Shown in pieces: positions 1 through 32,111 of a stretch of DNA of 41,361 bases; the stretch's first letter is position 1; every line of letters begins with the position of its first letter. The notes under the pieces are model-generated. The model saw only the letters and a list, made by a program, of their open reading frames with translations. It did not search any database and was not told the DNA's origin. Origin of the DNA: a virus (Duplodnaviria > Caudoviricetes). The DNA is taken from IMG/VR virus record IMGVR_UViG_3300012942_000077, positions 1 through 41,361 of that record. One strand, given 5' to 3'. The translations under genes were made by a program, and so were the position numbers.

Positions 1-3000
1 CCACAACATCCCGTATAAAGCCCGTAGAAGGGTTCTGAGGGTCATGAAGCGGAGTATAGCCCTGCGCATCCTCTACCCAATTGTTGACGCTCACTGACAC
101 CATAGAGTTAACCTGATCCCATGTGTTGAATGTCATGGTTTCATTACCTGGAATGATGATCTCCACATCTCCCTTGGCATTGACCAAGTTCCTCTGGTTA
201 ACTGGAGCATTGGTATCCAGCTTGAAGTTGATGATCACACTCTCAATACCTCGAATATTGACCAGCTCTCGAGGGCGGCCACCATCAACACTGGGTTGCG
301 AGAAACGATTGCCATCAACCTTGATATTCGAGGGGTCAGCTTCATCTGCCTCGGTTGTATTACCGTCCACACCATCTAGATCAACACCCGTCCGAGTAGC
401 AATTTCAGCCGAAAGACCAGTTGAATCCCATTCGAAGAAATCCCAGATTCCATCTTGGAACGTGCTGGTGATGATCGTGCCATCAAAACTACAACCCTCA
501 ATCAGGTTGTCGTCATCAGCACGGGTCATACCAGGTAGTGGGCGGTAATTACCAATACGGCTTGCCATACCCATGTCAGGGTCTTGATCCCATCCCACAG
601 ATTCGAATTCAAGCCAATCGGAACCAGACCACATATAGTGACTGGTGTCAGCCAAAACCGTAACAATCGTTCCTGGGCGATCAGGTGTTACTATTCCATT
701 GCGAACCAAGTAGTTACGGTCCTCAATGGTTTCTACTGCTTGGTCATTGTAATAATTGGCGCTTCCGTCGGTAGTTCCAGACCTATACTGGGCTGTCAGT
801 TGGCTCAAAGATCTGTTAGAATTGCTCAATTGGCTATAGACTAAGAGTGATGGATCCCATGGGCTGGTATCCCAACCTTTGACCGTTCCACAAGAGACAC
901 GATCCAGTTTAACACCTACCTTGATACGGCGAACGCCATTCCATGTTGTGTCCCAATCGGAGAGATCCTTGATAGGGTTCTGGTAGTTCTCATACCAATC
1001 CTTCCAAGGGCGATTCAGAGATAGGATCTGTTGATCTGCCGCGTTGGTGACATCTAGAATGCGGTTGGTCTTACCATCAGGATATACTGGCTTATCAAAG
1101 TCGGTCATTGCTAGATTCGCAACGTCTGGCCCGTATGAAAGACGACGCACATATTCGCGAATCTTCACATGGTATGGCTTAACCTCATCTAGGTAGCTGA
1201 TCACATTATCAATCTGATCCTTGAACGCTACTGGGCTCTGGGTTAGCTCTTCCGCATAGCCACCCAAGTAGAGGAACGATGTCTTGAATGCCCAATCGAT
1301 CATCTTGCTCTGATGGAACGCACTCTTAACCATGCTGAAGAAGATCGTATTCTTCTGAATGGTATCGATGAATTCAGTCCTCAGTGTATTGAGGATGAAC
1401 TCAATTTCACGACTGCCATCACGATTGTTGATCAGATCAGCAACCGTTTGGATCTGATCAGGTGTGATATTCTGAGCCAGGAGTGCTGTGACTTCTTTGG
1501 GCCCAAACTCTACGCGAGAATCATCATAGAAGACATCTGAGAGTGCCATCGTGGCATTGTGCTTGGCCACCTGATACTTGGTGGTGCTAGTGTAGACATC
1601 CCAGGTCCAGCGATCATCGGTATCGGTGTGATCAATCTGAACCAAGGTTCCCTTGAGTAAGGTCACATCTAGGTTACCAGCAGCATCACGATCAGCAGTT
1701 GTGGAGAAGCGATAGTTGGGGAAATCCTTGGCTGACCAACCACTGTCATACCAATCAACTAGATTCCAAAGTTCACCTTCCATCATTCTCCACTTCTGGA
1801 GATCCTTAAGGATGAAGGAACGCACGCCGTTATTCTCGACAAGCTGCCAAAGGGTCCAGAAACCGCCAATCTCGGCTGTGTTTTCGATGAATACACATTC
1901 TCCAGGATTGACCATGTTGCGAGCCGCAGGAAGGAGCGTCTTCAGATCCACAAGATCGAGAGCAGTGGTCACATAGAGGTCACTAGATGGCTGAGCCTCA
2001 CCCGTGTTGAATAGAGTATCATAGTCATACCATTGATCAATGAATGGAGCGGATGCCAATACATTGTTGAGGATGTCAACAAACGCCGCACGAGCAGCGC
2101 GGCTAGGCCTCTGGCCACCACTAGGTGAGGCATCGGCGGGGAACCAGGATTGGCGTGGGCGAACCAGGGCTCCAATCTGTTGGGCCTTTGGAAGACGCTC
2201 ATCTGGAATACTAGCTTGAGTGGCATCCCAACCAACTAGCGAATCGCGCATCTTATTCCATAGTGGATCGTCAATCGTATTTCGCTCGTCAGCTTCGCGT
2301 AGAATGATCCACTGCTTATGATGATTATTGTGGATCTCAGCATCCAAGTTCCATTTGACCTTCAGAACGGTGTCTTGCTCATTCAGATACTGTTTGATAC
2401 CACCAACGATAACCTTGTTGGTATCAACAACCGCAAAGAATGGAATATCCTGAGCCGATGGGTTGCTGATAATGTTGCTGACCTGTTGTGCCGAAAGTTG
2501 ACGATCAGGTCGCAAAGGAGTGACTGTTGGATTGAGAACCCAGAAGTAGTAGACCACCTCATCGGCATTCAAATCATCATTCCATTCAGTTGCGTGGATG
2601 AATGGAACATTTGCCGCATCAGTAACCGTGCCAGTTGGCTTGTTATCAATCTTCAGATTAGCCTGGCTGGTGACATAATCAGACCAGCCGCTTGGTGGAA
2701 CCGGGCTTCTGACCCACTCGTAAATGTCAATGGTCGAACCCGGAGCGACACGACCCCAATTCTTCCAGCGGTAATTCACACCATGGCTCGCAAGATCATC
2801 TTCAATCTCATAATCCAGATAGCGAACTGCGCTCTGATCCCACCAAAGCTGACCGACTTGTTCCTTACCCCAGACAGTCGTTGATTCATCATAATTCGCT
2901 GGATCATTGACTAGCTTGAATTCAAGCTCACGATCAGCTGATCCAGGAATGTAACCCTTGGCTGGATCGTAGAGCTGGAGCACCATCTTGAGTTCATTAT

Positions 3001-6000
3001 TGGTAGAATCATAGATAGCAGCATTGGTCAGTAGATCACTGTTGATCTTCCTGGTCTGGATACGGATAGGATCATCAGACCAGCCATTGTTATACTGATA
3101 GACAGCCCACAATCCATTACGATCATCAACCTCAACGACATCACCATTATCCCAGATGGCCGCTGTCTTAGGAATATCATCAAAGGTTCCATAACGGGTA
3201 TGAATCCAAGTATAGAGGCCTGCTGTTCCACCATCCTTACTAGTTGAGATTCCAACCAACTGACCATCAGTCAATGTGGTCAGTTCAAAACCCTTGGTGT
3301 AATGGTAGGTGACAGTAATTGATACCTTGCCTATAGCGCCAGTATTCGAGAGCATGGCGGCCATATACTGAGCACCAATGTCATTCACATCTTGGTTGAA
3401 TGTGAATGGATAGGTTCCAGGAGTCGTTAGATCGACAAAGTTGAGGCCTGACTGGCTGCTTGGTACGACCGTAATGACTTGTTGATCAGTCTGTTGGCCA
3501 TTCATATTGACAGTCAACGTGCCAGTGGTTGACTGACCCGGTGTGACTGGAACCTGAATAACCTGCTGGTAGGTGCCATCAGTATTGTCAGGTGAGTAAT
3601 CGGATGGTCGTAGGAAGGTAGTGCTTCCTTGAGTGGTAGTTCCGTTACTGACCCATACCCAATCAACTACAGTCTCACCACATACATTGGCCATTACACC
3701 AACTCTAACTAGGGTGATATCAGCAGTTGGAGTGGTTGAACCAACATAGTGAGTGTCAGGAGTCTGAACCAAGACTGTTTCACTGGAGTAATTGGTTGGA
3801 TAGATGGTTCTAGGAGTCTCTTGGCGTTCCTGTACAAAGTAGTCATTCTGGTTCTCATGACCAATAACCAATGTAGAACCATCAGCGAACTTCTCAGTCA
3901 CATCTACGATAATCTGATCAACTACCATATGAGGATCAGCCAACATAGTGATCAGAGGAACATAGGAAGCACTAGCATTGGTAAGATCGAGAGTGAATGA
4001 ACCAGTGAACTTAGGAACGTAATTGTTCCTATCGCTGATATCGCTACCAGTCAGATTGGTTAGGATCAACTGCTCTTCAGTATTGATTTGGTTCAAGTAG
4101 AAGCCCTGTGTTCCACCAGCGTTGAGGTTATTGTTAAGAACCGCCACCACCGATTGACCATCAAACGCCGGAGCCTTAAAATCAATTACTTCATAGCCAG
4201 TGTCATTGAACTTGTAGGTCATCCAATCATCGAGCGAGTCTTCACCGATACCATAAACCCACACACGGTCACGATCCTTAAGAGGCTGATCAGTCGCGAG
4301 TTGGTCATTGTAGAGCGTTGTGAATGCTTCCTTGGTTGGAACCGTGAAGCGAACTTCATCTAATTTCACATAGCCAGCAGTTGGCATGATATCGCCCTGG
4401 CCATAATCACGCACCGGCCAGGTGATCTTATTCATGTCAGGGCGCCACTGCCAGCGGGTATCAAAGGTTTCAAGGAGACCATTGCTATCAGTGTAATCCA
4501 CAACCTGGATTGTTCCGGGGCTAACCGTAACACTCGTGCCAGTCTCGGTTTGACCAAAGCTGATCAACTGTGGGTTGTGTTTGAATTCACTTTGACGGAT
4601 CTGGATGTCAAGACTTGGGCTGACTTCCTGGCCACCATAATCACCAACTCGGAATGCCCATTCCTCGAAGAGCTGTAGGCCCTTGTTATTACGGATGAAG
4701 TTGGAACGCAGGAGACGACGCATAGAGGTTGGGCTACCCTTCTGCTGAATCATACCCTGATAGAACTCAAATTGGTTAGTTGGTGTCAAGAGCAGGTTAT
4801 CTAGGTAATCCTTCTCTTCATAGCCAAAGTTCGCACGCGCACGATCCTGTAGAGTCTTATTCTCCATGGATTCAGATGCGAAGAACCTACGGAAGTCATC
4901 AGCGGCCCTCTCAAAGTTTGGTGTGAGTGTATCACCAGTAACAATGAAGCCTGGAGCATCAATACGACCCTGCCAAGCCATGGTTTTGAAACCTTGAATA
5001 CGCAGGCGGGGCTGGTGGATATTGAGCAGTGGATTGTAGATCGTGTCACCGAAGATCGTCTGGTTATTGAATACCAAGACATGCTCATATTCACTCACGT
5101 AGAGTCGCAACCCGAAGATACCCTTGCTGTTTAGATCACAACTAACAGTGAGTTCACCATCACTGCGCACTACATGAGTCTTACGGTTATCAATAGGTTG
5201 ACCGTTCTGATCTACAATCGCGTACAGACCATTCACAATCTGCTCAATAGGCTGAATAGCTCCTTGATCAGAAGAGAACCTAACCAGGCGGCTGCTTGGG
5301 CTGAGGGCGATATAATCGCTAACTACACGGTTCTCATTTTGAGACCATAGGATGAATGAACCGCACGCATCCTTCCAATCCTGAACTGAGACATTGTCTG
5401 TTCCTAGATCACTGAACGACCATCCCCGGCTCTTGAGGTAACGCTCATAACCATTAAGAAAATCGGCTACGTCCTGGGGTGTCTTGAGGATTGTTCCATA
5501 GGATACCTGCTCGACCTGTGGATCGATTTCACTCTCTAGGGCCCAAACAAGACGTGCTCCATCAGCATATTGAGGGCGAGCAACTTGCGTCCAATAGTTG
5601 GGTTGATCTTCATCAAAATAAGCAGAGCTGGTATGGGTCTTCAACGCACGGTAGAAGTTATCCCCATACTTCACTGTGATATTCACACTATAGTAGGTGT
5701 TTGGCCTCCATCCAGGAACTGCCGCACTAGCCGCGCCACTACCAACGGATGTCTTGTTGCCATAGGGGTTGCCAGGAATGATACTGAAATATGGATTCAA
5801 GGCGTCATAGCCATAGATCTCATATCCCTTACCAGTCCAGGATATCGCCACACCACTGTAGACTTCTTCGCGGATGCTTGGTGAACGATAGAGGTTTACG
5901 CTCACATCTTCCCCTGGCACTCGACCAAACGCATCACTGACCACCACCAGCGTTGAAGAGTCTGTGAATCCAGCAGCTTTGTAGCTCAACTGGGTTCCTA

Positions 6001-9000
6001 GTCCTCTAACCTTATCAGCCAGGATCGTATTCACACTAGTGTTGCTGCTGGCAAGGTAATCACTCACCCATTGTTGGATACCGACCTTAGTGACCAGTGA
6101 GAAGTCATCTAGAACTTCACCATGAACCTGGAGTGAAGCATGGCGTGGTCGACCCATGGTATCCTGATCCATGTATTGCTCATTAGGAGTTCCAGTGAAA
6201 TACAGGGCAAGATCCTTGGTGTTCCAACCAAGCTCAATAAACGCGGCAGGCTTCATGAGATATGAAGCAGTCGCGACAGCAAAACCATAAGCAGAACTAC
6301 GACGCCAGGTCTGCTCAACTGGGCTCAAGTCTCCCCAGTTCCATTCTGCGATACGATCAGTTGGAAGAGGAACTGCGGAACAAATGCCACATCCCAATAC
6401 GATATCGCTGACCTGCCAACGTCCTAGGCTTAAATCATAAGCGAAGCACTTCGATGGATCGCTGATAGTTGTATTGGTATCATCCTCAAAACTCTGCGTT
6501 GCGGAATGTGATTGGCGGCAGATGTAAATCAGGTCATTCATAACCACCACATCATCGATGTGATAGGCCTTTGGTTCCGATTGATCATTCACCTGGGTCC
6601 AAGCTGTTTGGAAGCTCTGAGGATCATATTCAAAAGCAGTCATCGCCGCCTCGAAATCCTCTGGTGAATCATAGGCCTGCGGATCAGGTCGGAAGGTCAA
6701 TGTCGTCTGTGGAACCGCAGTGAAAGCCTGAAGGTTCCTTGGGCCAGGATGACGTAGTCGTCCCTGACCATCTACTGGAATATGCTCTGATAGGCCTGGG
6801 CGTGCCCAAGCCGTATTGATACCTTGGCGATCACCCTGATGGATGTAACCAGCCTCAAGATCGTTCCAAAGAACCAAGTTATCACTAGTATAGGGGGCCG
6901 CACCATAACGAGCCTGCCACCAATCCGGCTGAATGGTGAAACCAAGACTCTCCCATGGTGTCATATCAGGTCTTTGGGTCCCAAAGAATTTCTCATAGAT
7001 ACCACGCCAATGACCAGGAACTCCTTGTGAACCCCAGTTCCAGGTCCAAGGATCGTATGTGTTGGTCTGATCGTTAGCCCTATAATCCTGACGGTAAGCT
7101 ACCGTCCAACGCTCGAAAGATGGGCGAAGGATCTGAAGCCATTCATCATAAGAGTAATCATTGGTACGATACTGATCACCATATGCTGTTCCAAAGTCAA
7201 CGATAGGGCGTTCACGATTGCGAATGGCGGCTGGAACGCTATCAAAGATACGCTGCTCAAGAGCCAAGTAGATAGAAGCAACCGTCGAGTCTTCAATCTG
7301 AGAAATTGCTCCATCATGACCACGCACAAACCAGACATCAACCATGGTTCCATCAGTAGTTAGAACGCTATCTTGAAGGCTCTGTGGCTGATAGAGGGGA
7401 TACACACCAAGATAACTCGGTGTAGCGGGGATGAATGTTGGCAATGAGTTGGTCGCATTCCTGGCCATACCAGATAGGTAGAATGCGAAGCTCTTGGTTT
7501 TGCCCTTATTGATCTCATCCAAAGCCGTATCAATCCAGACATCATAGGATGCTGAACCAGATAGGCGACTATTGATCACATAATCCAATACCTTCTGGAG
7601 GAACTTAGCCTTGAATTTCGAATACTCAGAATCCGAATAACGGATGGCAGTTGTGATATCCAACTGGTTCGAACCAGCCAGTAGCATAGTCTTCAGTAGG
7701 CCAGCCGAGTGCTGAATGATGTGAGTACCAAGGTTGGTAGCCTTAGCTGTATCACGGTAATTGTTGTTGGCGTATTCCGCACCACTGAACCCGACCTGGC
7801 TCTTGATGATCTCCGAGAAGTGATCATAGAAGTCACCCTTAGTCAGAAGGCTAACCTGCTCATTGTCTGGGTTGGCCTGTAGGTTCAAAGGCACCTCATA
7901 ATGACCAGTAGCATCTGAGGGTGGATTTAAAGGATTGAAGGATCGGATCTCAATGATATCACCATTAGTAACATCAAAGATCATGATATTCTGACCAACT
8001 CGGATGAAATCCTCATCTTCAACCAGTTCAATACTCTGGAATGACTTGTTGGTTCCAACCCGACCAATCGTAACTGTCAGTTCATCTGCTGGCTGGCTCA
8101 TCTTGAATAGTTTGGTTGAGCCATCGCTAACATAGCGGTCAACCATGAACTGACGAGTCTTCTGAGCGGCCTTATACCAATCATTGCTCAGATTGCCATC
8201 ATCACTGTGGAAGTAGAAACCCTCAATATCAAGGAACTTACCACCCACGACATACTGATAGATCTGCGTGCTGATGAAGTTCTCAAATAGGATCTGGCCC
8301 TGGTTATCGTAAACCAATGGAATACCAAGAATAGCATCAGCAATTCTCGTCCCAGTATCATCAACCTGATAATTGAAGATCTTGCTTCCCTGGAAAGTGC
8401 TGTTTGGATAGGCACCAGTATCTTTGAGGCTCAAGCCGTTTAGGTCATAGAGTTCAAAAAGCGGAGCCTGATTCACCGAAGTCTTTTGCTGAGCTAGAAC
8501 CCAATTACTACCATCCCAATGAAGATTCTTGCCCTGGTAGGTACCCAATCGAACCCTAAACACCTCTCCGAATACACTGTTACCACTTGGATCAGCACCA
8601 TCAGTCTCAAGAATCAACTTGAGGGCGTTACCCTGATTGACTAGAACAAAGATGTTGTCATTCAGTAGATCATTGACAGTATTGCGAACCATCAGGCGAA
8701 TAGATTCAACATTACCATAAGCCAATCCAGTATCAGGATTGGTCGCATAAACTGTGATCTTATTGGTGCCCTGGGTTGTGATCGTTATACCATCCAGAGT
8801 TACACTCTGTGGTGTCAGGTTCAGAGCCGCATTGAGGTCTTCAATAGACTCGACCACGATATCAACGGGTAGACGACGAATGGTTCCGTAATTGTAGAGC
8901 TCAAGCTCACTATTGAACTCAATGATTGGACGGTTCGCACGATGCGCAAGAACGAAATCTGGATCTAGATTCCCTGATAGTGTTGAAGCATGGAACCAAC

Positions 9001-10009
9001 GATTACAAGTTGACCATTCATTCTCATTCTTCGAACCACGGGCTACTACCATGTAGTCTGGTTCGATAGTTCCACCAACCGTCTCTTTGATCAAGTAGAT
9101 GCTCTGACCCACACCCTCAACGATCCATACATCATTCTTAGTGTAGTCGGTGTTGTTATCCAATTGGATGCTGATACGCATACCACTTGAAAGCGAAACA
9201 CCACCAAAAGCCTTAGGATTAGCCGATGTTAGACCAACAGCATTATTCATTAGGTCACTGAATACGCTAATCTGAACCACAGCATCAGTAGCGGGTTTTT
9301 GCGCGAATTTAACCGTCTGACCAACGATCGTGACGCTCTTGGGTTGGCCATCAACTAGAGCAATGACATTGCTATTGGTCACATCACCAAGCTGGTAATA
9401 TTGAGCCAAATCAGGATCAGTTGAACCATAACCAGGAAGGTCATAGATGTTAGTCTGACCCGTGCTGATTACAGTGCTTGTTGGGCCATAGACAGGAATA
9501 GCTGCCTTGAATGCCTGATCATCAGGTATATCACTTAGCGGAAGCCAGACATACTGACGAAAGTTGACTATCTTATCCAGATTAATCGGTGGGCACCAAG
9601 TGTAGTAATCTTGGCTAAACAGCCTATTGTGGTTGTTTACCAGAGCCCCCTGGAATCGCAGTTGATTAATCAGATCAGGATAGGGTAGAAGGTCTGTAAG
9701 TTGACCTTCTGTATTCTTACTAACCATGCTTGCTTCAAGCTGGTAGAAGGTGCGATCGCTAGTCGACTCTTCTAGGTAGTAATCCTGGTCAGGATCATAC
9801 CAAAGCGGTTTCTGACCCACATAGCCATTAATGGGTTTACCCTTGCCTGGATCGAAAAGGTTATCCGCACTGGCACCGAAGAACTTCTGAAGCGTTTCAG
9901 TCTGATGAACAGCCGGAAGCTGTTTGATCACACGACGCTTTTCATGAACTTCCTGGTCCAGAAGTACGGGTGTAAATGCGAAGGGGTTACGGTTGGTCTT
10001 GTTGGCCAT
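1..10009 (-). CDS. Giant virion structural protein (baseplate wedge/tail-associated), >3,336 aa, 3' end outside the window
   Basis: The ATG at 10009 overlaps the TAA of the upstream gp6-like gene (TAATG) and reads MANKTNRNPFAFTPVLLDQEVHEKRRVIKQLPAVHQTETLQKFF. The same frame is still open at the left edge (..GYTPLHDPQNPSTGFIRDVV). The ORF track lists nothing in this frame, consistent with no stop inside the window. Position downstream of gp25/gp6 suggests a baseplate role. Confidence 0.85.
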   Translation of the reverse strand, partial: MANKTNRNPFAFTPVLLDQEVHEKRRVIKQLPAVHQTETLQKFFGASADNLFDPGKGKPINGYVGQKPLWYDPDQDYYLEESTSDRTFYQLEASMVSKNTEGQLTDLLPYPDLINQLRFQGALVNNHNRLFSQDYYTWCPPINLDKIVNFRQYVWLPLSDIPDDQAFKAAIPVYGPTSTVISTGQTNIYDLPGYGSTDPDLAQYYQLGDVTNSNVIALVDGQPKSVTIVGQTVKFAQKPATDAVVQISVFSDLMNNAVGLTSANPKAFGGVSLSSGMRISIQLDNNTDYTKNDVWIVEGVGQSIYLIKETVGGTIEPDYMVVARGSKNENEWSTCNRWFHASTLSGNLDPDFVLAHRANRPIIEFNSELELYNYGTIRRLPVDIVVESIEDLNAALNLTPQSVTLDGITITTQGTNKITVYATNPDTGLAYGNVESIRLMVRNTVNDLLNDNIFVLVNQGNALKLILETDGADPSGNSVFGEVFRVRLGTYQGKNLHWDGSNWVLAQQKTSVNQAPLFELYDLNGLSLKDTGAYPNSTFQGSKIFNYQVDDTGTRIADAILGIPLVYDNQGQILFENFISTQIYQYVVGGKFLDIEGFYFHSDDGNLSNDWYKAAQKTRQFMVDRYVSDGSTKLFKMSQPADELTVTIGRVGTNKSFQSIELVEDEDFIRVGQNIMIFDVTNGDIIEIRSFNPLNPPSDATGHYEVPLNLQANPDNEQVSLLTKGDFYDHFSEIIKSQVGFSGAEYANNNYRDTAKATNLGTHIIQHSAGLLKTMLLAGSNQLDITTAIRYSDSEYSKFKAKFLQKVLDYVINSRLSGSASYDVWIDTALDEINKGKTKSFAFYLSGMARNATNSLPTFIPATPSYLGVYPLYQPQSLQDSVLTTDGTMVDVWFVRGHDGAISQIEDSTVASIYLALEQRIFDSVPAAIRNRERPIVDFGTAYGDQYRTNDYSYDEWLQILRPSFERWTVAYRQDYRANDQTNTYDPWTWNWGSQGVPGHWRGIYEKFFGTQRPDMTPWESLGFTIQPDWWQARYGAAPYTSDNLVLWNDLEAGYIHQGDRQGINTAWARPGLSEHIPVDGQGRLRHPGPRNLQAFTAVPQTTLTFRPDPQAYDSPEDFEAAMTAFEYDPQSFQTAWTQVNDQSEPKAYHIDDVVVMNDLIYICRQSHSATQSFEDDTNTTISDPSKCFAYDLSLGRWQVSDIVLGCGICSAVPLPTDRIAEWNWGDLSPVEQTWRRSSAYGFAVATASYLMKPAAFIELGWNTKDLALYFTGTPNEQYMDQDTMGRPRHASLQVHGEVLDDFSLVTKVGIQQWVSDYLASSNTSVNTILADKVRGLGTQLSYKAAGFTDSSTLVVVSDAFGRVPGEDVSVNLYRSPSIREEVYSGVAISWTGKGYEIYGYDALNPYFSIIPGNPYGNKTSVGSGAASAAVPGWRPNTYYSVNITVKYGDNFYRALKTHTSSAYFDEDQPNYWTQVARPQYADGARLVWALESEIDPQVEQVSYGTILKTPQDVADFLNGYERYLKSRGWSFSDLGTDNVSVQDWKDACGSFILWSQNENRVVSDYIALSPSSRLVRFSSDQGAIQPIEQIVNGLYAIVDQNGQPIDNRKTHVVRSDGELTVSCDLNSKGIFGLRLYVSEYEHVLVFNNQTIFGDTIYNPLLNIHQPRLRIQGFKTMAWQGRIDAPGFIVTGDTLTPNFERAADDFRRFFASESMENKTLQDRARANFGYEEKDYLDNLLLTPTNQFEFYQGMIQQKGSPTSMRRLLRSNFIRNNKGLQLFEEWAFRVGDYGGQEVSPSLDIQIRQSEFKHNPQLISFGQTETGTSVTVSPGTIQVVDYTDSNGLLETFDTRWQWRPDMNKITWPVRDYGQGDIMPTAGYVKLDEVRFTVPTKEAFTTLYNDQLATDQPLKDRDRVWVYGIGEDSLDDWMTYKFNDTGYEVIDFKAPAFDGQSVVAVLNNNLNAGGTQGFYLNQINTEEQLILTNLTGSDISDRNNYVPKFTGSFTLDLTNASASYVPLITMLADPHMVVDQIIVDVTEKFADGSTLVIGHENQNDYFVQERQETPRTIYPTNYSSETVLVQTPDTHYVGSTTPTADITLVRVGVMANVCGETVVDWVWVSNGTTTQGSTTFLRPSDYSPDNTDGTYQQVIQVPVTPGQSTTGTLTVNMNGQQTDQQVITVVPSSQSGLNFVDLTTPGTYPFTFNQDVNDIGAQYMAAMLSNTGAIGKVSITVTYHYTKGFELTTLTDGQLVGISTSKDGGTAGLYTWIHTRYGTFDDIPKTAAIWDNGDVVEVDDRNGLWAVYQYNNGWSDDPIRIQTRKINSDLLTNAAIYDSTNNELKMVLQLYDPAKGYIPGSADRELEFKLVNDPANYDESTTVWGKEQVGQLWWDQSAVRYLDYEIEDDLASHGVNYRWKNWGRVAPGSTIDIYEWVRSPVPPSGWSDYVTSQANLKIDNKPTGTVTDAANVPFIHATEWNDDLNADEVVYYFWVLNPTVTPLRPDRQLSAQQVSNIISNPSAQDIPFFAVVDTNKVIVGGIKQYLNEQDTVLKVKWNLDAEIHNNHHKQWIILREADERNTIDDPLWNKMRDSLVGWDATQASIPDERLPKAQQIGALVRPRQSWFPADASPSGGQRPSRAARAAFVDILNNVLASAPFIDQWYDYDTLFNTGEAQPSSDLYVTTALDLVDLKTLLPAARNMVNPGECVFIENTAEIGGFWTLWQLVENNGVRSFILKDLQKWRMMEGELWNLVDWYDSGWSAKDFPNYRFSTTADRDAAGNLDVTLLKGTLVQIDHTDTDDRWTWDVYTSTTKYQVAKHNATMALSDVFYDDSRVEFGPKEVTALLAQNITPDQIQTVADLINNRDGSREIEFILNTLRTEFIDTIQKNTIFFSMVKSAFHQSKMIDWAFKTSFLYLGGYAEELTQSPVAFKDQIDNVISYLDEVKPYHVKIREYVRRLSYGPDVANLAMTDFDKPVYPDGKTNRILDVTNAADQQILSLNRPWKDWYENYQNPIKDLSDWDTTWNGVRRIKVGVKLDRVSCGTVKGWDTSPWDPSLLVYSQLSNSNRSLSQLTAQYRSGTTDGSANYYNDQAVETIEDRNYLVRNGIVTPDRPGTIVTVLADTSHYMWSGSDWLEFESVGWDQDPDMGMASRIGNYRPLPGMTRADDDNLIEGCSFDGTIITSTFQDGIWDFFEWDSTGLSAEIATRTGVDLDGVDGNTTEADEADPSNIKVDGNRFSQPSVDGGRPRELVNIRGIESVIINFKLDTNAPVNQRNLVNAKGDVEIIIPGNETMTFNTWDQVNSMVSVSVNNWVEDAQGYTPLHDPQNPSTGFIRDVV

Positions 10010-24233: not shown

Positions 24234-26014
24234 TAAAGATCCGCACGATAACGATGAAGAACTTCCTCAGTGTTGGTAATACGACTCAGGCAGTTCAATT
24301 GGATGAACATGGCCTCACTTTGATTCTTGGTGAGAATGTGGATCAGGGTAGTGGTGGCTCACGCAACGGCGTGGGTAAGACGACACTGGCCCAGGCCATT
24401 TGTTATGCGCTATATGGTGAAGCGTTGACGCAGATCCGCAAGGATAACCTGATCAACAAGATCAACCAGAAGCAGATGTCAGTATCTTTGGATTTTGACA
24501 TTGGTAACAAGAGCTATCGCATCGAACGAGGTCGCAAACCGAACTTTCTTCGCTTCTATGTCAATGATGGTTTGGTGACACAGGATGGTGATAATGAAGC
24601 TCATGGAGAGAGCAAGATCACCCAGGAAGAAATCGAGAAGACTATCGGTTGCTCGCATACACTCTTCAAACACATTGTCGCCCTTCACAGTAAGACTACA
24701 CCCTTCCTGGAGATGAATGCCAAGGACCAGAGGGTGGTTATTGAAGAGCTCCTAGGTATTACCCAGCTATCGAGCAAAGCAGAGCAGCTCAAAGTCTTGG
24801 TCAAAGAGATTAAGGATGAGATCAAAGGTGAAGAGCTTAGGATCAAGATCCTAATTGATAACAATGATCGTATCCAGAAGACGATCAATGATCTCAAGTT
24901 CAAAGGAACCATCTGGGATAAGGAGCACGCCAAGAAATTGGAGAAACTCCAGATGGCTATTGATCAACTCAAAGAAATTGACATTGAGACGGAGATCAAT
25001 AACCAACGTCTCCTAACGGAATTCAACCGTATTTCACAAGAAGTGATGAGGTTTGAACGCGATGCTTCTCGCGTGGAGAAGACCTATAATTCAGCTGAGT
25101 CTTCCATCCAGCGTCTTGATTCACAACTGGAGACGGCTAATGAGAAGAAATGTCATACATGTGGCCAAGACGTTCATGATGATAAGCACCAGGAGATTCT
25201 TGCTGATCTAGTAGCCCAGCGTAAGCACTTTGAAGAAGAGCGTAGCCAGGTTCAGGAAGAACTCTTTGCTGTAGCAGGCGATCTCGAGAAAGCTATTGGA
25301 GAACTCAATGAGTTAGGTGAAAGGCCACAGGTCTCCTATCCAAATATTGAGCAGGCGATGAACCATCGCCATACACTTGATAAATTGGAAGCTGATCAAC
25401 AGCGTGAATCAGCTCAAGATAATCCATTTGTTGACCAGATAGCCAACCTGAGCACTTCAGGCCTTCAAGACATCTCCTATGATTACCTGAACGAATTGGT
25501 GAGGTTGAAGGAACACCAGGACTTCCTACTCAAATTGCTGACCGATAAGACATCATTCATTAGGAAGAAGATCATCGATCAAAACCTCAGCTACCTGAAT
25601 GTGCGACTCAATTCATACCTGGATAAGATCCAGCTTCCACATGAGGTAGTCTTCCAAAGTGATCTATCCGTTGAGATTACTCGACTAGGACGCGAGTATG
25701 ACTTCGCACAGTTGAGTAATGGTGAGCAGAACCGAGTAGTGTTGGCTCTCGCATGGGCATTCCGTGATGTCTGGGAGACAATGAATAAGCCAATGAATTT
25801 GATCCTGATTGACGAACTGGTAGATGCTGGCATGGATAGTAAGGGTATGGACCTGGCCCTAGAGATCCTCAAGAAGAATGCCAGGGATCGTGGTAAGAAT
25901 ATCTTCCTCATCAGCCACAAAGATGAATTGACGTCAAGGGTACCAAGGGTGCTATTGGTTCAATACGAGAACAATTTCACCACCTATATCACGGATACTG
26001 AGCAGAATGACTGA
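24230..26014 (+). CDS. gp46: Recombination ATPase subunit, Rad50/SbcC-like
   Basis: Walker A 'NGVGKTT', coiled coil with zinc hook 'CHTC', signature 'LSNGE', Walker B 'ILIDE' and H-loop 'ISH'. Confidence 0.93.
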
Positions 26015-26891
26015 GATCCTTTACAGCAATGAGGATGCCAGTGTGAACTTTGTAACGCCTCACCCTTTGGGTGGGGCGTTTGAGTCTCGGTATGTCAGGC
26101 GTGAGCAAGACTATTTCATCACCTATCTGAGCAGCCATAGTGGTTGTAATAAGGCTTGCCGTTTCTGTCATCTTACACAGACCAGACAGACAATGATGGA
26201 GCCGGCTAGCCCTGCTGACTATGAGCAGCAAGCCTTGGATGTTTTCCGCCATTACCGTCAATTCGATGATGCCCTAAGGGTGAATTACAACTTCATGGCA
26301 CGTGGAGAACCCTTGGCTAACCCTAGCGTGCTAAACGCATGGCATGACGTTCAGAGACCCTTACAGAGCTTAGCAGAGCAACATGCCTTGGTAGCAAAAT
26401 ACAACATCAGTACCATCATGCCAGAAGAAGTATCAGATCGAACGCTCTATGAGGTGTTTGGAGACACTGGAGCACAACTCTATTATTCACTCTATAGCCT
26501 CAGATCTGAATTTAGAAAAAGGTGGCTACCCAGGGCCATGGATCCCCATAAGGCTCTTTGGAAGCTAACTGAATGGCAACAGAAGACTGGAGAATTGGTA
26601 ACTCTCCACTGGGCTTTCATCGAAGGTGAAAATGACGACCTCGAAACACTCGAGGAGATCATCATGGCAATCTTATTCCGCGGTCTTAAGGTGAAGTTCA
26701 ACCTTGTGCGGTATAACCCCTACAGCCCAGCCCAGGGTCAAGAACCCAGCGAAGAGATCATCCAGAGAAACTTCGACTATTTGGCTGAGGCTTTCGGCAA
26801 CTCGAAGTCTAGGATTGTGCCCCGCGTTGGCTTTGATGTCAAGGCGAGTTGTGGAATGTTTGTGGATGACCCTGCCCAAAACTCTATCTAG
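26007..26891 (+). CDS. Radical SAM enzyme, RlmN/Cfr-like (294 aa)
   Basis: CxxxCxxC '[10 protein letters not shown]', 'MARGEP' (compare MGMGEP), 'FNLVRYNP' and C-terminal 'DVKASCG' (compare DIDAACGQL). Confidence 0.8.
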
Positions 26892-27099
26892 TGATGTTTG
26901 GACCTGGCGACGACAAGGTATAGGTTTCTTCTCAGGCTTCTCCTTTGATCTCACTCCTGAATGTAGAGAATGGCTCAACACTCATGTGGGTAATGCTCCT
27001 GAGCGTTGGTGGTGGGATCATTTCACTGATGAAGGTGAGACATCCATCATGTTTGTTGACCCCACAGACGCAATGCTCTTTAAGCTGACCTGGCTATGA
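26866..27099 (+). CDS. Small protein, 'DAMLFKLTW' family copy 1 (~77 aa)
   Basis: Ends [15 protein letters not shown], with an ATGA overlap to the next gene. The start is estimated at ATG 26866. Confidence 0.65.
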
Positions 27100-27362
27100 G
27101 CGGTTGGGCTGTAGAACTTTTCCTACCCTATCACGATGAGCGCCTGTTTGGGCAGAATTTCTGCGATCCGAATGGCAAAGAGATCAGACAGTGGCTTATA
27201 GATCGGTTAGGGCCTATTGACTATAAGCGTAGTGCTGGAACCTGGCGTTGGACCATCAAGTATGAGCGTTCGATAATGGAAGGTGATGGCCTTACGTTTG
27301 GTGCCTTTGCTTGTTTCAGAGATCCTAAGGACGCAATGTTGTTCAAGTTAACTTGGTTATGA
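27096..27362 (+). CDS. Small protein, 'DAMLFKLTW' family copy 2 (88 aa)
   Basis: Ends [15 protein letters not shown], with ATGA coupling on both sides. Confidence 0.75.
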   Translation: MSGWAVELFLPYHDERLFGQNFCDPNGKEIRQWLIDRLGPIDYKRSAGTWRWTIKYERSIMEGDGLTFGAFACFRDPKDAMLFKLTWL

Positions 27363-27610
27363 TCTGGGTAGCTATAGATTCCTATGATGCCGGTTACGCT
27401 ATCAAAGGTCTGATGATTGATGAGCAACATGCCAGTGGTCAGCGACCAGGGTATGGCGGTGGCTGGGTGATCAGGGATGATGTACATGAATGGCTCACAT
27501 CACGAACTGACAGTTATCAGCTCGTTTGGAGCGAGATCAAGCATGGTTTTTGGCATGTAGGCCTTGAGGATTCCAATATGGCCATGTTGTTCAAATTGAC
27601 GTGGGTCTGA
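27359..27610 (+). CDS. Small protein, 'AMLFKLTW' family copy 3 (83 aa)
   Basis: Ends [18 protein letters not shown] 27359 overlaps the previous TGA. Confidence 0.75.
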   Translation: MIWVAIDSYDAGYAIKGLMIDEQHASGQRPGYGGGWVIRDDVHEWLTSRTDSYQLVWSEIKHGFWHVGLEDSNMAMLFKLTWV

Positions 27611-27858
27611 TGTTTGATCTGATCATTCCTCGACCGAAACATCGCAAGATGCTCAGCTGGGCACATAGGACCGCGCGTTTTCGGACCAAGTTCCAGCTAT
27701 GGTGTGAAGCATTTATTGGTATCCATGGTGTGGATTGGCACATTGTGATGATACGGAATGGTCCTAACCCACCCGATTACGCTTTGCGTTGTCGCACCAA
27801 ACAACATGCCATCCTCTTCCACCTTCATCACAAACTCTATTTGGTTGACTCAGACTGA
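27610..27858 (+). CDS. Small protein, divergent member of the same family (82 aa)
   Basis: TGATG coupling. 'WCEAFIG..DW..CRTKQHAILFHL' echoes the W..G..W..AMLFKL pattern. Confidence 0.6.
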   Translation: MFDLIIPRPKHRKMLSWAHRTARFRTKFQLWCEAFIGIHGVDWHIVMIRNGPNPPDYALRCRTKQHAILFHLHHKLYLVDSD

Positions 27859-29442: not shown

Positions 29443-30273
29443 ATGACATCAGGCCGGCGTTATCAGGATCTATCACTAATGGTTGATGTATCGCCCAGTG
29501 ATAAGACACGCTTCAAAGAATTCATGAAGCAAGAGCTCCACTACTATAACGCCCTCATTGAAGGGCTTGGGCCTAGAGCGAGGGCCTTCCCCGAGACCCT
29601 TCTAGCCCTCCACAAGGATTGGGAGAACCTTTGGTCAACTTTGGCCCAAGGAGGCCACAATCTAAAGGCCTATGAGAAGGCACCTAACGACGTTCAACTT
29701 CCAAAGGATCTTGAACCACATCGCAAGATGCTAGTTGGCCGAGATTCAAAGGGTGAACGGTTCCTTGATGATCGTATGTTTAACATCATGAGCATCGCCA
29801 CTACTCAGGCCCTAATTCATCCATTGGTGCGGCGCAATATGGCTAACCAAATGCTTGAATTCTACAAGGATCAAGCAGCAAAGCTCGTGAAGCGAAATGA
29901 TGAAACCCTAGGTGGCGAAGATCTCTATTCCAAGCCAATCGATCTGTTGGTTAAGCAGGATCTAACGACTAAGCGGCACCTACAGATTCCACGTAATGCT
30001 CTGAATGCGGTCTACTATTATGAAGACCGAGAGCTGACTGAGATCTACACCCCATATAGTGATAACCCTCTAGTGGTTCAGGGACATGATCTCGAGCACA
30101 ACAATCATTGGAATATGATCATCCTTCATCAACAACCTGGTTTGGAACCTATGCCCAATACACCTTGGGTTGTTGACATCAAGTATAACCAGAATGTATA
30201 TATGATCAAATACCAGGATGTTGACGCACCCAAGACTGGTAAGATCTTCGCAGCAATGAAGCGGAGATACTAA
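29443..30273 (+). CDS. TnpB/Cas12-like N-terminal (WED/REC) domain protein lacking RuvC (276 aa)
   Basis: Strong AAGGAG SD. By-eye colinear similarity to the TnpB N-terminal half: strand plus helix ending 'ELHYYNALIE', helix 'HPLVRRNMANQMLEFYK', 'RHLQIP', 'IYTPY..PLVVQG' and 'MIILHQQ..WVVDI'. The protein ends where RuvC-I would begin. The ORF itself is well supported; the fold call is inference. Confidence 0.5.
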   Translation: MTSGRRYQDLSLMVDVSPSDKTRFKEFMKQELHYYNALIEGLGPRARAFPETLLALHKDWENLWSTLAQGGHNLKAYEKAPNDVQLPKDLEPHRKMLVGRDSKGERFLDDRMFNIMSIATTQALIHPLVRRNMANQMLEFYKDQAAKLVKRNDETLGGEDLYSKPIDLLVKQDLTTKRHLQIPRNALNAVYYYEDRELTEIYTPYSDNPLVVQGHDLEHNNHWNMIILHQQPGLEPMPNTPWVVDIKYNQNVYMIKYQDVDAPKTGKIFAAMKRRY

Positions 30274-30304
30274 CCAGAAAGATCGATCAGATGTAGCTGA
30301 ATCG

Positions 30305-30324
30305 CATTATCCAGGCGGATAATG
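30305..30324 (+). other. Perfect 8-bp hairpin CATTATCC-aggc-GGATAATG
   Basis: Lies 31 nt after the stop of the TnpB-like ORF and just before a TAAATA box. No U-tract follows. Confidence 0.6.
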
Positions 30325-30339
30325 TCTACGTGCTAAATA

Positions 30340-30910
30340 GGCCAAAGGGACCTACCCGTAGATTCTACTTTATAGCTCATACCTAGCCCCACAGACACCT
30401 AATATAATCAAATGAGTCCGGGACGAGCATCAGGCTCCAACCCGGACCATATTAGCTCAACAGCCTAGATTCTAAAGAAACTTCGCCCGGACGACTGACG
30501 GGATGGTAGCTGCTAGGAGCGAACTGGGTCCTACATTAGTAGGTATGGGTATTACCCTGCGACACACCAGTATAAACAAAGCCAGTGGAGAAAACGCTGG
30601 TGGTGATCCGAGAAGCAACTTAGGGGTGTAAAACAGACTTTCCCCTTAAGCTCTGGTTCTTCGTAGGAAGCGAGGGAAAACCCATGACTGGGAACCTCGC
30701 AAGCGACCCATGCTACTTGAAAGGTGTGGATCACGCTACCGCCATATTCCAGAGTTCCTAACTGAAAAGCCGACAGGATGACCCCGGCGCTGATAGTAAT
30801 ATCAGTGTTAGTTTCAAGATCTTGCGACAACCTCTAACAGCAAGACCCTACTCCCCCTTATTGAATGTTATTTCAGTGAGGGGGAGTAAAGATCCGTTGC
30901 TTCCTACCTA
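30340..30910 (+). ncRNA. Putative large structured non-coding RNA (~570 nt, possibly extending to ~31200)
   Basis: A ~970-bp gap in an otherwise gene-dense genome, with TAAATA at 30334-30339. Helices: 30376-85/30540-49, 30416-22/30441-47, 30603-09/30728-34, 30619-26/30642-50, 30670-75/30695-700, 30787-95/30800-08 (GUAA tetraloop), 30820-25/30840-45 and 30849-65/30872-88. The mismatches are G-U on the + strand. Confidence 0.6.
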
Positions 30911-31242
30911 CAGCAAGTCGTCACTTCACTCACAAGTTCGTTCATTCCGGCTGCGCCATTTCAGGTCTGCTTCGCCTTTTAATCCAATTAGTTCTCCTAC
31001 CAAGCCGTTCAGAATCAATGAGTTCAAAGAGAACTTTCGCAAAGAATCGTGAAGATTTCGTACGAAATTCGTAAGGAATAGCCGCTCTCAGAGATCTGAC
31101 AGAAATACCTATTACTATCGCTTAGTCGTCGTTCGAAGAGATTTTAAACCTTCCTCTGATCATCTATTTGACTGAACTTCTTCTCTCTCGCTGATCAGTT
31201 AGCCACTAGATAAATACTGCTATAATGGGCAATAGGTGATCT

Positions 31243-31731
31243 ATGCGTCAGAAGTTCAATCAGGAAGAGTTCATTGGATGGAAGTTCAGTCGCACTGAAG
31301 CTGCTCACCTATCATCACATCTCATGCCTTTAGTGAAAGCTTCTACCCATAGGGAGAAGAAATTCATTCAACACATGACCAATGAGTTTCTTGAAGAGAT
31401 GCCCTTTCTGTCGATCAAGCAGAAGGAATGGCTAGATATCATCATAACTCGCCAAGGCTTCTCCAACTTATCTCACATCTGCGAGCAAGTAAAAGCTATT
31501 CGATGGTCTGGTGATATCGACTCATTGATCAGTTTCATCCAAAGCCTCACGCCTCTTATGGATGGTGAATTCATCTGGTTCTATGAATACAATCCTAGTG
31601 CCCTGGCCTATGGTAAGACACCGGTAGAGATTCTCACCAGCGATTGTGATGCCTATCTTGGATTTGAGAATCGATCAGATGCCAGAATGGTTATCAGTGA
31701 GATTACGCATAAACTTCAGGCGATAGTGTGA
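31243..31731 (+). CDS. Hypothetical protein (162 aa)
   Basis: TAAATA at 31211-31216 and an AGGTG SD upstream; coupled to RNase H by TGATG. Confidence 0.7.
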   Translation: MRQKFNQEEFIGWKFSRTEAAHLSSHLMPLVKASTHREKKFIQHMTNEFLEEMPFLSIKQKEWLDIIITRQGFSNLSHICEQVKAIRWSGDIDSLISFIQSLTPLMDGEFIWFYEYNPSALAYGKTPVEILTSDCDAYLGFENRSDARMVISEITHKLQAIV

Positions 31732-32111
31732 TGGAGATCTATTTTGATGGCGGTTGTGCGCCCAACCCTGGTCGTATGAGTGCTTGTATTGTAGTTTGCC
31801 AGGATGGTCAGAAAGCTAGAGCCCATACTATCAAGGATCTAGGCCAGGGTACCAACAATATTGCTGAATGGTCAGCTCTCATCTGGGCTGTTCTTTGGGC
31901 CAAAGACAATGGCATTAAGCAATGTGTCTTTATCGGCGACAGCCAGTTGGTCATCAACCAGGTTAGTCGAGTTTGGAAGGTCAATGATCAGATGTTGGCC
32001 GACCTGTTCAAACAATTCCAAGAGATCTCGGAGGGACTTGATCTTGAGTTTCGCCATGTACTTCGTGATTCCAATCTAGCTGGCATATACCTGGAATATG
32101 GTGCTCTCTAG
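31731..32111 (+). CDS. rnhA: Ribonuclease HI-like protein (126 aa)
   Basis: 'YFDGG..PNPG', 'TNNIAEW.AL', 'GDSQLVINQV..WKV' and 'HVLRDSN' motifs. Confidence 0.85.
   Translation: MEIYFDGGCAPNPGRMSACIVVCQDGQKARAHTIKDLGQGTNNIAEWSALIWAVLWAKDNGIKQCVFIGDSQLVINQVSRVWKVNDQMLADLFKQFQEISEGLDLEFRHVLRDSNLAGIYLEYGAL

What the first reader, a model, noticed from the sequence alone, without database searches (positions are those of the whole stretch)
30334..30910. Multi-domain ncRNA with strand-specific G-U pairing, a GNRA loop and a possible switch or pseudoknot
Seen: TAAATA (30334-39), then nested domains. CUCAUACCUA/UAGGUAUGGG closes 30376-30549, and GUGAUCC/GGAUCAC closes 30603-30734. A 9-bp stem is capped by GUAA (30787-30808), and a 17-bp stem spans 30849-30888. 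The non-Watson-Crick positions in these stems are G-U on + and would be A-C on -, which indicates selection on a + strand RNA rather than DNA cruciforms. GGUAGC (30505-10)/GCUACC (30735-40) crosses the first domain like a pseudoknot. GUAGGAAGC (30663-71)/GCUUCCUAC (30899-907) partly competes with the GCGAGG/CCUCGC hairpin. Inference: a ribozyme-sized or scaffold-sized RNA, probably expressed late. I cannot assign it to a known class.
Basis: partly seen in the sequence, partly recalled or inferred. Interest (0 to 1): 0.8.

Follow-up and report, generated by a model that had tools for sequence, protein, structure and literature searches.

The report
Jumbo-phage RNA, candidate replication primer
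A giant phage carries a conserved gene-free stretch predicted to fold into an intricate RNA of about 490 bases, with no match in the RNA family catalogue, that recurs at two sites in related phages and ends in a hairpin between two repeats that change together, so it likely serves as an RNA primer that starts DNA replication, perhaps helped by a neighbouring protein predicted to fold like the nucleic-acid-gripping half of TnpB/Cas12.

Summary
The stems are real, but the element is two modules. (1) A ~490-nt body (30460-30950, 'type A'): 9 homologs, 23 of 42 pairs of its 3' domain compensated, an overlooked pseudoknot, no Rfam match. It also stands alone, with its own promoter, at a second site in 5 related jumbo phages. 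(2) A ~170-nt 5' piece (30280-30450) seen only behind ORF276 (29443-30273), whose model (pLDDT 94.6) matches the WED+REC lobe of TnpB/Cas12f without RuvC. At this site type A is swapped for an unrelated EGFOA-like RNA in a 98%-identical phage. Five cultured relatives lack ORF276; four keep the gap. Three sequence-unrelated RNA types (a fourth weakly) end alike: direct repeat, C/G hairpin, direct repeat, and the two repeats change together. That is the signature expected if nascent RNA re-pairs with template DNA, as in ColE1. Best reading (45%): R-loop primer origin; an RNase H gene lies 0.8 kb downstream. No transcript or origin activity is shown, and skew gave no support. The scan noted the half-TnpB/RNA pair before on other DNA (e1-5683721, e1-5595606) and the multi-copy RaK2-type RNA; the free-standing copies and co-varying repeats are not in the summaries I saw.

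The parts
29443..30273 (+). ORF276: 276-aa protein predicted to fold as the WED+REC lobe of TnpB/Cas12f/Fanzor, without RuvC; optional partner
   Evidence: AF2 pLDDT 94.6; top 28 rows of VIA-align are all TnpB/Cas12/Fanzor, best Z 9.5, rmsd 3.8, 167 aligned to AsCas12f residues 0-208; profile hit to Fanzor1 E 0.0024; 194 family representatives
30280..30450 (+). 5' module seen only at the ORF276 site: CAG[AUGUAG]CUG stem, sequence-variable hairpin 30305-24, TAAATA, CUACUUUAUAGC 30365-76, hairpin 30412-50; likely the RNA piece that ORF276 binds (inferred)
   Evidence: shared by type A and type B loci while bodies are unrelated; hairpin after GAATCG differs in sequence but folds in 11 of 11 loci; absent from free-standing copies and from Phosso
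30334..30339 (+). TAAATA, likely late promoter
   Evidence: 13 copies in the window, most shortly before gene starts incl. portal, tape measure and hub
30460..30950 (+). type A RNA body, about 490 nt
   Evidence: 9 homologs aligned; free-standing in G001-G004 and G010
30464..30517 (+). 5' domain closed by CCUAG 30464-68 / CUAGG 30513-17 (partner read by eye from the alignment), with hairpin CCCG/CGGG
   Evidence: 11 of 23 predicted pairs of the 5' domain with a double change
30670..30818 (+). 3' core: helices 30670/30700, 30708/30729, 30758/30811, 30769/30788, 30789/30806 and pseudoknot 30716-22 with 30812-18
   Evidence: 23 of 42 pairs with double change, 96.8% of cells paired, 0 of 500 shuffles, slid controls 2-10 pairs; pseudoknot 100% paired, 3 of 7 pairs compensated
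30663..30907 (+). long-range helix GUAGGAAGC/GCUUCCUAC that covers the middle of repeat 2; possible switch (inferred)
   Evidence: duplex -15 kcal/mol or better in 6 of 9 homologs, weak in 3
30816..30844 (+). direct repeat 1
   Evidence: repeat similarity in the window p 0.0005 against shuffles
30849..30888 (+). terminal hairpin, C-rich 5' arm and G-run 30880-84
   Evidence: like hairpins end types B, C and D
30889..30917 (+). direct repeat 2, co-varying with repeat 1
   Evidence: own-copy against other-copy permutation p 0.0005 in 9 sequences; two single positions concordant 9 of 9
30920..30976 (+). conserved tail TTCACTCAC..GTTCGTTCATTCC and GCTTCGC; resemblance to primosome/single-strand initiation sites is recalled, not tested
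   Evidence: alignment A6
31728..32111 (+). RNase H gene, neighbour of the site in this clade and in phage Phosso
   Evidence: PF13456 E 7.8e-12, phrog_531

Best explanation
This is a conserved, co-varying structured element that likely acts as a transcription-activated replication origin, in which the folded transcript would stay paired to its own template DNA (an R-loop) and be cut by RNase H to give a primer, as ColE1 RNA II does. Shown: the conserved fold, the two-module build, the swap between unrelated RNA types at one site, several copies per genome, and the repeat-hairpin-repeat end whose two repeats change together. Inferred steps: (1) a host-type promoter early, and TAAATA late, drive transcription; (2) the body folds and presents repeat 1; (3) as polymerase passes repeat 2, RNA repeat 1 pairs with the template strand of repeat 2, looping out the hairpin, and the G-run helps hold the hybrid; (4) the 30663/30907 helix competes and would release the RNA, making a switch; (5) RNase H trims the hybrid and the displaced strand with the conserved tail loads helicase/primase. 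ORF276 would be an optional, nuclease-free helper at one origin that binds the 5' module and steadies the R-loop.
For: Co-varying direct repeats: type A p 0.0005; type D p 0.0026; single-lineage double changes in the window (ACAG), G010 (ACC), XaC1 copy L129 (ACGTCAA) and an E. coli island copy (CGTCAG in both); type C L010 against L016/L017 (p 0.34 with 3 sequences). No complementary 7-mer inside the RNA in 4 of 9 type A elements. ColE1 needs an RNA rG stretch paired to a template dC stretch, RNase H then makes the primer, and T4 has several promoter-driven R-loop origins (PMC4412123 passages). Several diverged, dispersed copies per genome suit a cis role: 2 in G001-G004 and G010, 4 in PBECO4, 5 in XaC1. 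Types A and B replace each other between 98%-identical flanks. The gap persists without ORF276 in 4 of 6 cultured phages inspected. RNase H is the near neighbour. Free-standing type A and type C run into convergent genes. A gene-free 1-kb replicon containing the ARRPOF motif is a precedent (PMC5737381 passage).
Against: No transcript, R-loop or origin activity was observed. GC skew has no switch at the site and third-position skew shows no replication-strand signal. TAAATA looks late, whereas T4 origins use middle promoters. No plasmid carries type A or type D. Atu_ph07 has no gap here and SCTP-2 none behind its resolvase. Part of the repeat can be explained inside the RNA: AGAUCU is palindromic in 3 of 9 elements, the long-range helix covers the middle of repeat 2, and in type B the short repeat has an RNA partner. 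Gene conversion or a DNA-binding protein would also make repeats change together. The permutation p values ignore relatedness, and the repeat windows were anchored on a shared motif. Co-orientation of copies is weak evidence, since 121 of 150 and 112 of 139 long genes lie on that strand. PA5oct RNA-seq lists no ncRNA at its gap (PMC7318152 passages), which fits a scarce primer but shows nothing. An earlier agent read the tail repeats of the RaK2-type element as RNA hairpins, not an origin (e1-240482).
Confidence: 0.45

Rival explanations
1. A free, trans-acting ornate RNA like ROOL, GOLLD or EGFOA: an abundant phage RNA that folds or multimerises and acts as scaffold, decoy or counter-defence factor; the repeats are a terminator or processing switch.
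For: Size and elaborate compensated fold; late-type TAAATA; type B scores 35-37.5 bits against EGFOA, just under the 37.7 cut-off, and EGFOA RNAs form trimers and dimers (bioRxiv 2026.07.01.735769 passages); a type D copy sits in an E. coli island beside DUF4326/DUF488/dual-OB genes.
Against: A diffusible RNA does not need 2-5 diverged dispersed copies or wholesale swapping of unrelated folds behind one shared 3' module; co-varying direct repeats have no conserved RNA partner in type A.
Confidence: 0.27
2. The whole RNA is the scaffold and guide of ORF276, a nuclease-free RNA-guided DNA binder.
For: Fold match to TnpB/Cas12 lobe; RNA directly behind the gene in most loci; invariant-like residues E31, N36, K177-H179, Q181.
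Against: Type A stands alone in 5 genomes; type B occurs in Phosso without the gene; the same protein sits before A or B; L013 has the gene with no RNA behind it; no part of the site matches elsewhere in G003, G004 or the window above chance.
Confidence: 0.1
3. A ribozyme or selfish mobile RNA element that self-processes and spreads, at times with an HNH-like gene.
For: Invariant core motifs and a pseudoknot; wholesale swap; HNH-like ORF (motif by eye, no Pfam hit) behind the RNA in L001 and L002.
Against: No Rfam ribozyme or intron match; fixed intergenic sites with own promoter; the ORF is absent from near-identical L019; no reverse transcriptase seen nearby.
Confidence: 0.1
4. A cis-acting nascent RNA that makes RNA polymerase read through terminators, or a DNA-level packaging or recombination signal.
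For: Multi-copy, co-oriented, promoter-proximal; direct repeats could be protein sites.
Against: Free-standing type A and type C are followed by convergent genes; G-U-tolerant covariation points to RNA.
Confidence: 0.08

Closest known systems
ColE1 RNA II preprimer
   Same: Several-hundred-nt transcript (about 555 nt, recalled) whose G stretch pairs with a template C stretch to give a persistent hybrid cut by RNase H (PMC4412123 passages); here G-run, co-varying direct repeats, RNase H neighbour.
   Different: No sequence match to any plasmid; repeats are about 29 nt and flank a hairpin; several interchangeable folds; no antisense RNA I counterpart looked for or seen; priming not shown.
T4 oriF/oriG R-loop origins
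   Same: Several promoter-driven R-loop origins in a T4-like genome.
   Different: T4 uses a middle promoter plus an unwinding element; no large conserved fold is described in the passages read; here TAAATA plus a host-type -35.
TnpB/Cas12f/Fanzor with omega RNA; dCas12f and TldR
   Same: WED+REC fold; RNA right behind the gene.
   Different: RuvC lobe absent altogether rather than inactivated; no transposon ends or guide target found; the RNA body exists without the protein.
EGFOA (RF02955), ARRPOF, ROOL, GOLLD
   Same: Large conserved RNAs in long gene-free regions; type B scores near the EGFOA cut-off; ARRPOF lies in a region needed for Rep-free plasmid replication.
   Different: Type A matches none of them at E up to 10.

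Membership tests
Any Rfam family (introns, RNase P, tmRNA, GOLLD, ROOL, OLE, HEARO, ARRPOF, EGFOA) | cmscan match at gathering score | tested here: not met
   0 matches in window; only 4 chance matches of 13-15 bits at E up to 10; no tRNA or tmRNA
EGFOA (type B RNA of relatives) | score at or above 37.7 bits | tested here: inconclusive
   37.5, 36.1, 35.1 bits in 3 of 5 loci; 20.3 bits in G007; none for Phosso at E up to 1
ColE1-type primer origin | promoter followed by a long structured transcript | tested here: inconclusive
   structure met; promoter motifs by alignment only, sigma-70 scan found none on +; transcript not seen
ColE1-type primer origin | RNA segment able to pair with a downstream template segment | tested here: met
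   co-varying direct repeats; sequence signature only
ColE1-type primer origin | persistent RNA-DNA hybrid, RNase H cleavage, DNA synthesis from the RNA end | not testable with these tools
   needs DRIP-seq, nascent-strand mapping or in vitro transcription
ColE1-type primer origin | sequence homology to ColE1-like replicons | tested here: not met
   no plasmid match for type A or type D
ColE1-type primer origin | antisense RNA I control | not tested
   not examined
TnpB/Cas12 (ORF276) | WED+REC lobe | tested here: met
   Z 8-9.5 is modest, but the top 28 rows are one superfamily
TnpB/Cas12 (ORF276) | RuvC nuclease lobe | tested here: not met
   model ends after WED; 150 best family members are 96-345 aa; none among 605-2000-aa proteins (weak)
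TnpB/Cas12 (ORF276) | guide with a target elsewhere | tested here: inconclusive
   none above chance in own genomes; host and other phages not searched
TnpB/Cas12 (ORF276) | binds the adjacent RNA | not testable with these tools
   needs pull-down

The most novel reading that the evidence does not exclude
T4-like jumbo phages start replication from several interchangeable, elaborately folded primer RNAs that share a repeat-hairpin-repeat template-capture module, and one lineage has domesticated the nuclease-free half of TnpB as an RNA-bound R-loop loader at an origin: a CRISPR-ancestor protein turned replication initiator.
Probability: 0.18. Interest if true: 0.95.

Novelty: new variant of a known kind. 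Interest (0 to 1): 0.8.

Why it matters
How T4-like jumbo phages start replication was not addressed in any paper my searches returned. If these RNAs are primers, the origins of a whole group, including cultured E. coli, Klebsiella and Sinorhizobium phages, become mapped and testable at once, and large phage RNAs of unknown function (EGFOA-like) gain a role. A RuvC-free TnpB lobe kept as a single-copy gene would be a new exaptation of the Cas12 ancestor and a compact RNA-bound DNA-opening module. Even if the origin idea fails, this is an undescribed ~490-nt RNA family with a testable compensatory-mutation design.

Tried and rejected
Rfam, ARAGORN, Pfam and PHROGs for the element and ORF276: nothing. 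BLAST of the region and of ORF276 or two homologs against cultured phages: no match. ESM Atlas: no hit above 0.77. GTDB genomes: no ORF276 relative. Sequencing runs: no RNA holder listed, so no reads were laid. Guide-target search: chance level. Cumulative and third-position skew: no origin signal. Pattern scans of IMG/VR: of 10, 12, 6 and 16 stretches, all that matched an RNA type lay behind an ORF276 homolog; the rest (7, 3, 1 and 10 contigs) showed no RNA or protein match; these scans missed the free-standing copies, and BLAST missed the G002 copy (against 112). Type A not found in G007, G011 (both incomplete), Phosso, Atu_ph07, PBECO4, PA5oct, SCTP-2. Automatic repeat finder picked wrong windows in several rows; searches used anchored windows. 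Coding role of 30552-30830 and 30822-31052 rejected. Literature searches with no relevant result. The supplement of PMC5737381, which describes EGFOA, could not be read and may bear on novelty; subscription papers are not in the library.

Full report
Setting. The window is a T4-like jumbo phage contig: portal, gp46/47, late sigma factor, baseplate hub; relatives are 416-465 kb. The finding lies in a 970-bp gap between ORF276 (29443-30273) and a 162-aa ORF that precedes RNase H (31728-32111).

Observation. The + strand folds better than shuffles (z -4.9; - strand -2.25). There is no Rfam, tRNA or tmRNA match. The two small ORFs are not conserved in frame across 9 homologs.

Two modules. Homologs of ORF276 brought in 17 viral and 7 metagenome loci, partly redundant. 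Behind the gene, L001/L019, L002 and L007 carry the same RNA as the window (type A, 73-84% identity). L003-L006, L008, L024 and L040 carry an unrelated body (type B, 43 of 108 predicted pairs compensated; near the EGFOA cut-off); L009 a B-like one; L010, L016, L017 a third (type C). L013 has none; its near-twins L014 and L015 were not printed. A and B share only the first 190-200 nt. L019 (A) and L021 (B) are 98% identical on both sides and differ only from just after CAGATGTAGCTGAATCG to the RNase H start.

The body stands alone. A profile of type A found a second copy in the complete genomes G003 and G004; G001 and G010 have it too, and G002 shows it on inspection although BLAST missed it; G007 and G011, both incomplete, gave none. 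These copies lie on the same strand, about 124-132 kb from the ORF276 site in four genomes, near an IF3 gene, have no ORF276, and carry a TTGAC-like box (5 of 5) and TAAATA (4 of 5). With 9 sequences the 3' domain gives 23 of 42 pairs with double changes and 96.8% of cells paired, against 2-10 pairs for slid controls; a pseudoknot 30716-22/30812-18 is fully paired with 3 compensated pairs. The structure was derived from this alignment, so the controls flatter it somewhat.

The site outlives the protein. Of 6 cultured phages inspected, Phosso, PBECO4, XaC1 and PA5oct keep a 0.8-1.5-kb gap behind the resolvase; Atu_ph07 and SCTP-2 do not. The ORF276 profile finds nothing in 5 of these genomes (it finds one copy in 4 of 4). 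Phosso holds a type B RNA (E 4.6e-10). The PBECO4 gap sequence (type D) matches 73 phage records, mostly with 4-5 places each: 4 dispersed copies in PBECO4 and 5 in XaC1, each set on one strand, and one in a small integrase-bearing island in 2 of 5426 E. coli genomes.

The shared end. Types A-D are unrelated by profile search, yet each ends in a C-arm/G-run hairpin flanked by direct repeats. In type A the repeats are 30816-44 and 30889-917. Three blocks change together: AAGATC against AAGGTG-like, ACC against GCC (9 of 9 concordant), ACAG (window only, both copies) against ACTG; permutation p 0.0005. Type D gives p 0.0026 and the island copy changes both repeats to CGTCAG. These p values ignore kinship and use motif-anchored windows; the count of separate double events (about six) is the better measure. 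In 4 of 9 type A elements no 7-mer of the repeats has a complement in the RNA; in three, a palindrome allows some RNA pairing; in type B the repeat is only 5 nt and has an RNA partner.

Mechanism. Two same-strand copies that must match are expected if the upstream RNA copy pairs with the template strand of the downstream copy. ColE1 works so: an rG stretch pairs with a template dC stretch, the hybrid persists and RNase H makes the primer; T4 has several promoter-driven R-loop origins (PMC4412123, passages; that the ColE1 stretches lie far apart is recalled). Dispersed multiple copies, interchangeability, the RNase H neighbour and the ARRPOF precedent (PMC5737381, passages) fit. Against: no skew signal, late-type promoter, no plasmid copy, absence of the gap in two relatives, and gene conversion or protein binding as other causes of matched repeats. 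I put this at 0.45, a free ornate RNA at 0.27.

ORF276. A 150-sequence alignment gave a model of pLDDT 94.6. The top 28 structural matches among 48,161 chains are TnpB, Cas12 and Fanzor N-terminal lobes (best Z 9.5, rmsd 3.8, 167 residues); Foldseek agrees weakly (best E 1.6e-3). There is no RuvC. Its likely RNA partner is the 5' module, present only where this clade has the gene; distant homologs lack that module by sequence, so the partner is unproven. No guide target was found.

Prior knowledge. Searches returned nothing on this element (listings only). Read: bioRxiv 2026.07.01.735769 (abstract, outline, 11 passages: EGFOA oligomers, no function or protein partner in those passages); PMC7318152 (7 passages: four PA5oct ncRNAs, none at the gap); PMC6102473 (1 passage); PMC13282480 (7 passages, no mention of TnpB, Rak2 or R-loop in the main text); PMC5737381 (6 passages; supplement unreadable). 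Earlier agents of this scan reported the half-TnpB/RNA pair on two other genomes and the multi-copy RaK2-type RNA many times; I had reached the TnpB fold and the multi-copy result before seeing them, and took the island lead from them.

Verdict. A real, undescribed RNA family with a specific, testable mechanistic signature; function inferred, not shown. Interest 0.8.

Noticed in passing
window 1-10009 (-): One reading frame without any stop codon over 10 kb, running off the contig end: a giant virion protein missed by the ORF list.
   Followed up: no
window 31243-31731 (+): 162-aa ORF between the RNA and RNase H, seen also in L007 but not in the other loci printed; only weak profile hits.
   Followed up: no
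L001 4665-5102, L002 4600-5061: HNH-like ORF (motif by eye; L002 copy has no Pfam hit) inserted behind the RNA, absent from near-identical L019; another HNH-like ORF lies before ORF276 in L007.
   Followed up: partly
L141 12001-12539 (E. coli NZ_CM130020.1): Type D RNA in an about 11-kb island at ffs with an IS3-interrupted integrase, DUF4326/DUF488/dual-OB genes and no annotated replication gene; both repeats changed together.
   Followed up: partly
L116 3260-4273 (phage Phosso): Type B RNA in a cultured phage without ORF276; a ready test system.
   Followed up: partly
L120 2668-4180 (PA5oct): 1.5-kb gap annotated with four tiny ORFs; ends in a CCCC/GGGG hairpin; matches none of the four profiles.
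   Followed up: partly
L008 and L040: ORF276 homologs at 41-43% identity beside RNAs that are close to L006's, suggesting relaxed selection on the protein while the RNA is kept.
   Followed up: no
L013 2863-3687: Distant ORF276 homolog followed directly by a terminator-like hairpin and a convergent gene, with no RNA behind it.
   Followed up: partly
BFVD entry A0A345MN37: 280-aa viral protein with the ORF276 fold (E 2.5e-16, TM 0.74); its phage was not identified.
   Followed up: no
window 27096-27858: Run of short ORFs ending in a similar 'AMLFKLTW' motif, repeated in related loci.
   Followed up: no
window 26007-26891: Radical SAM protein of phrog_27142 next to gp46.
   Followed up: no
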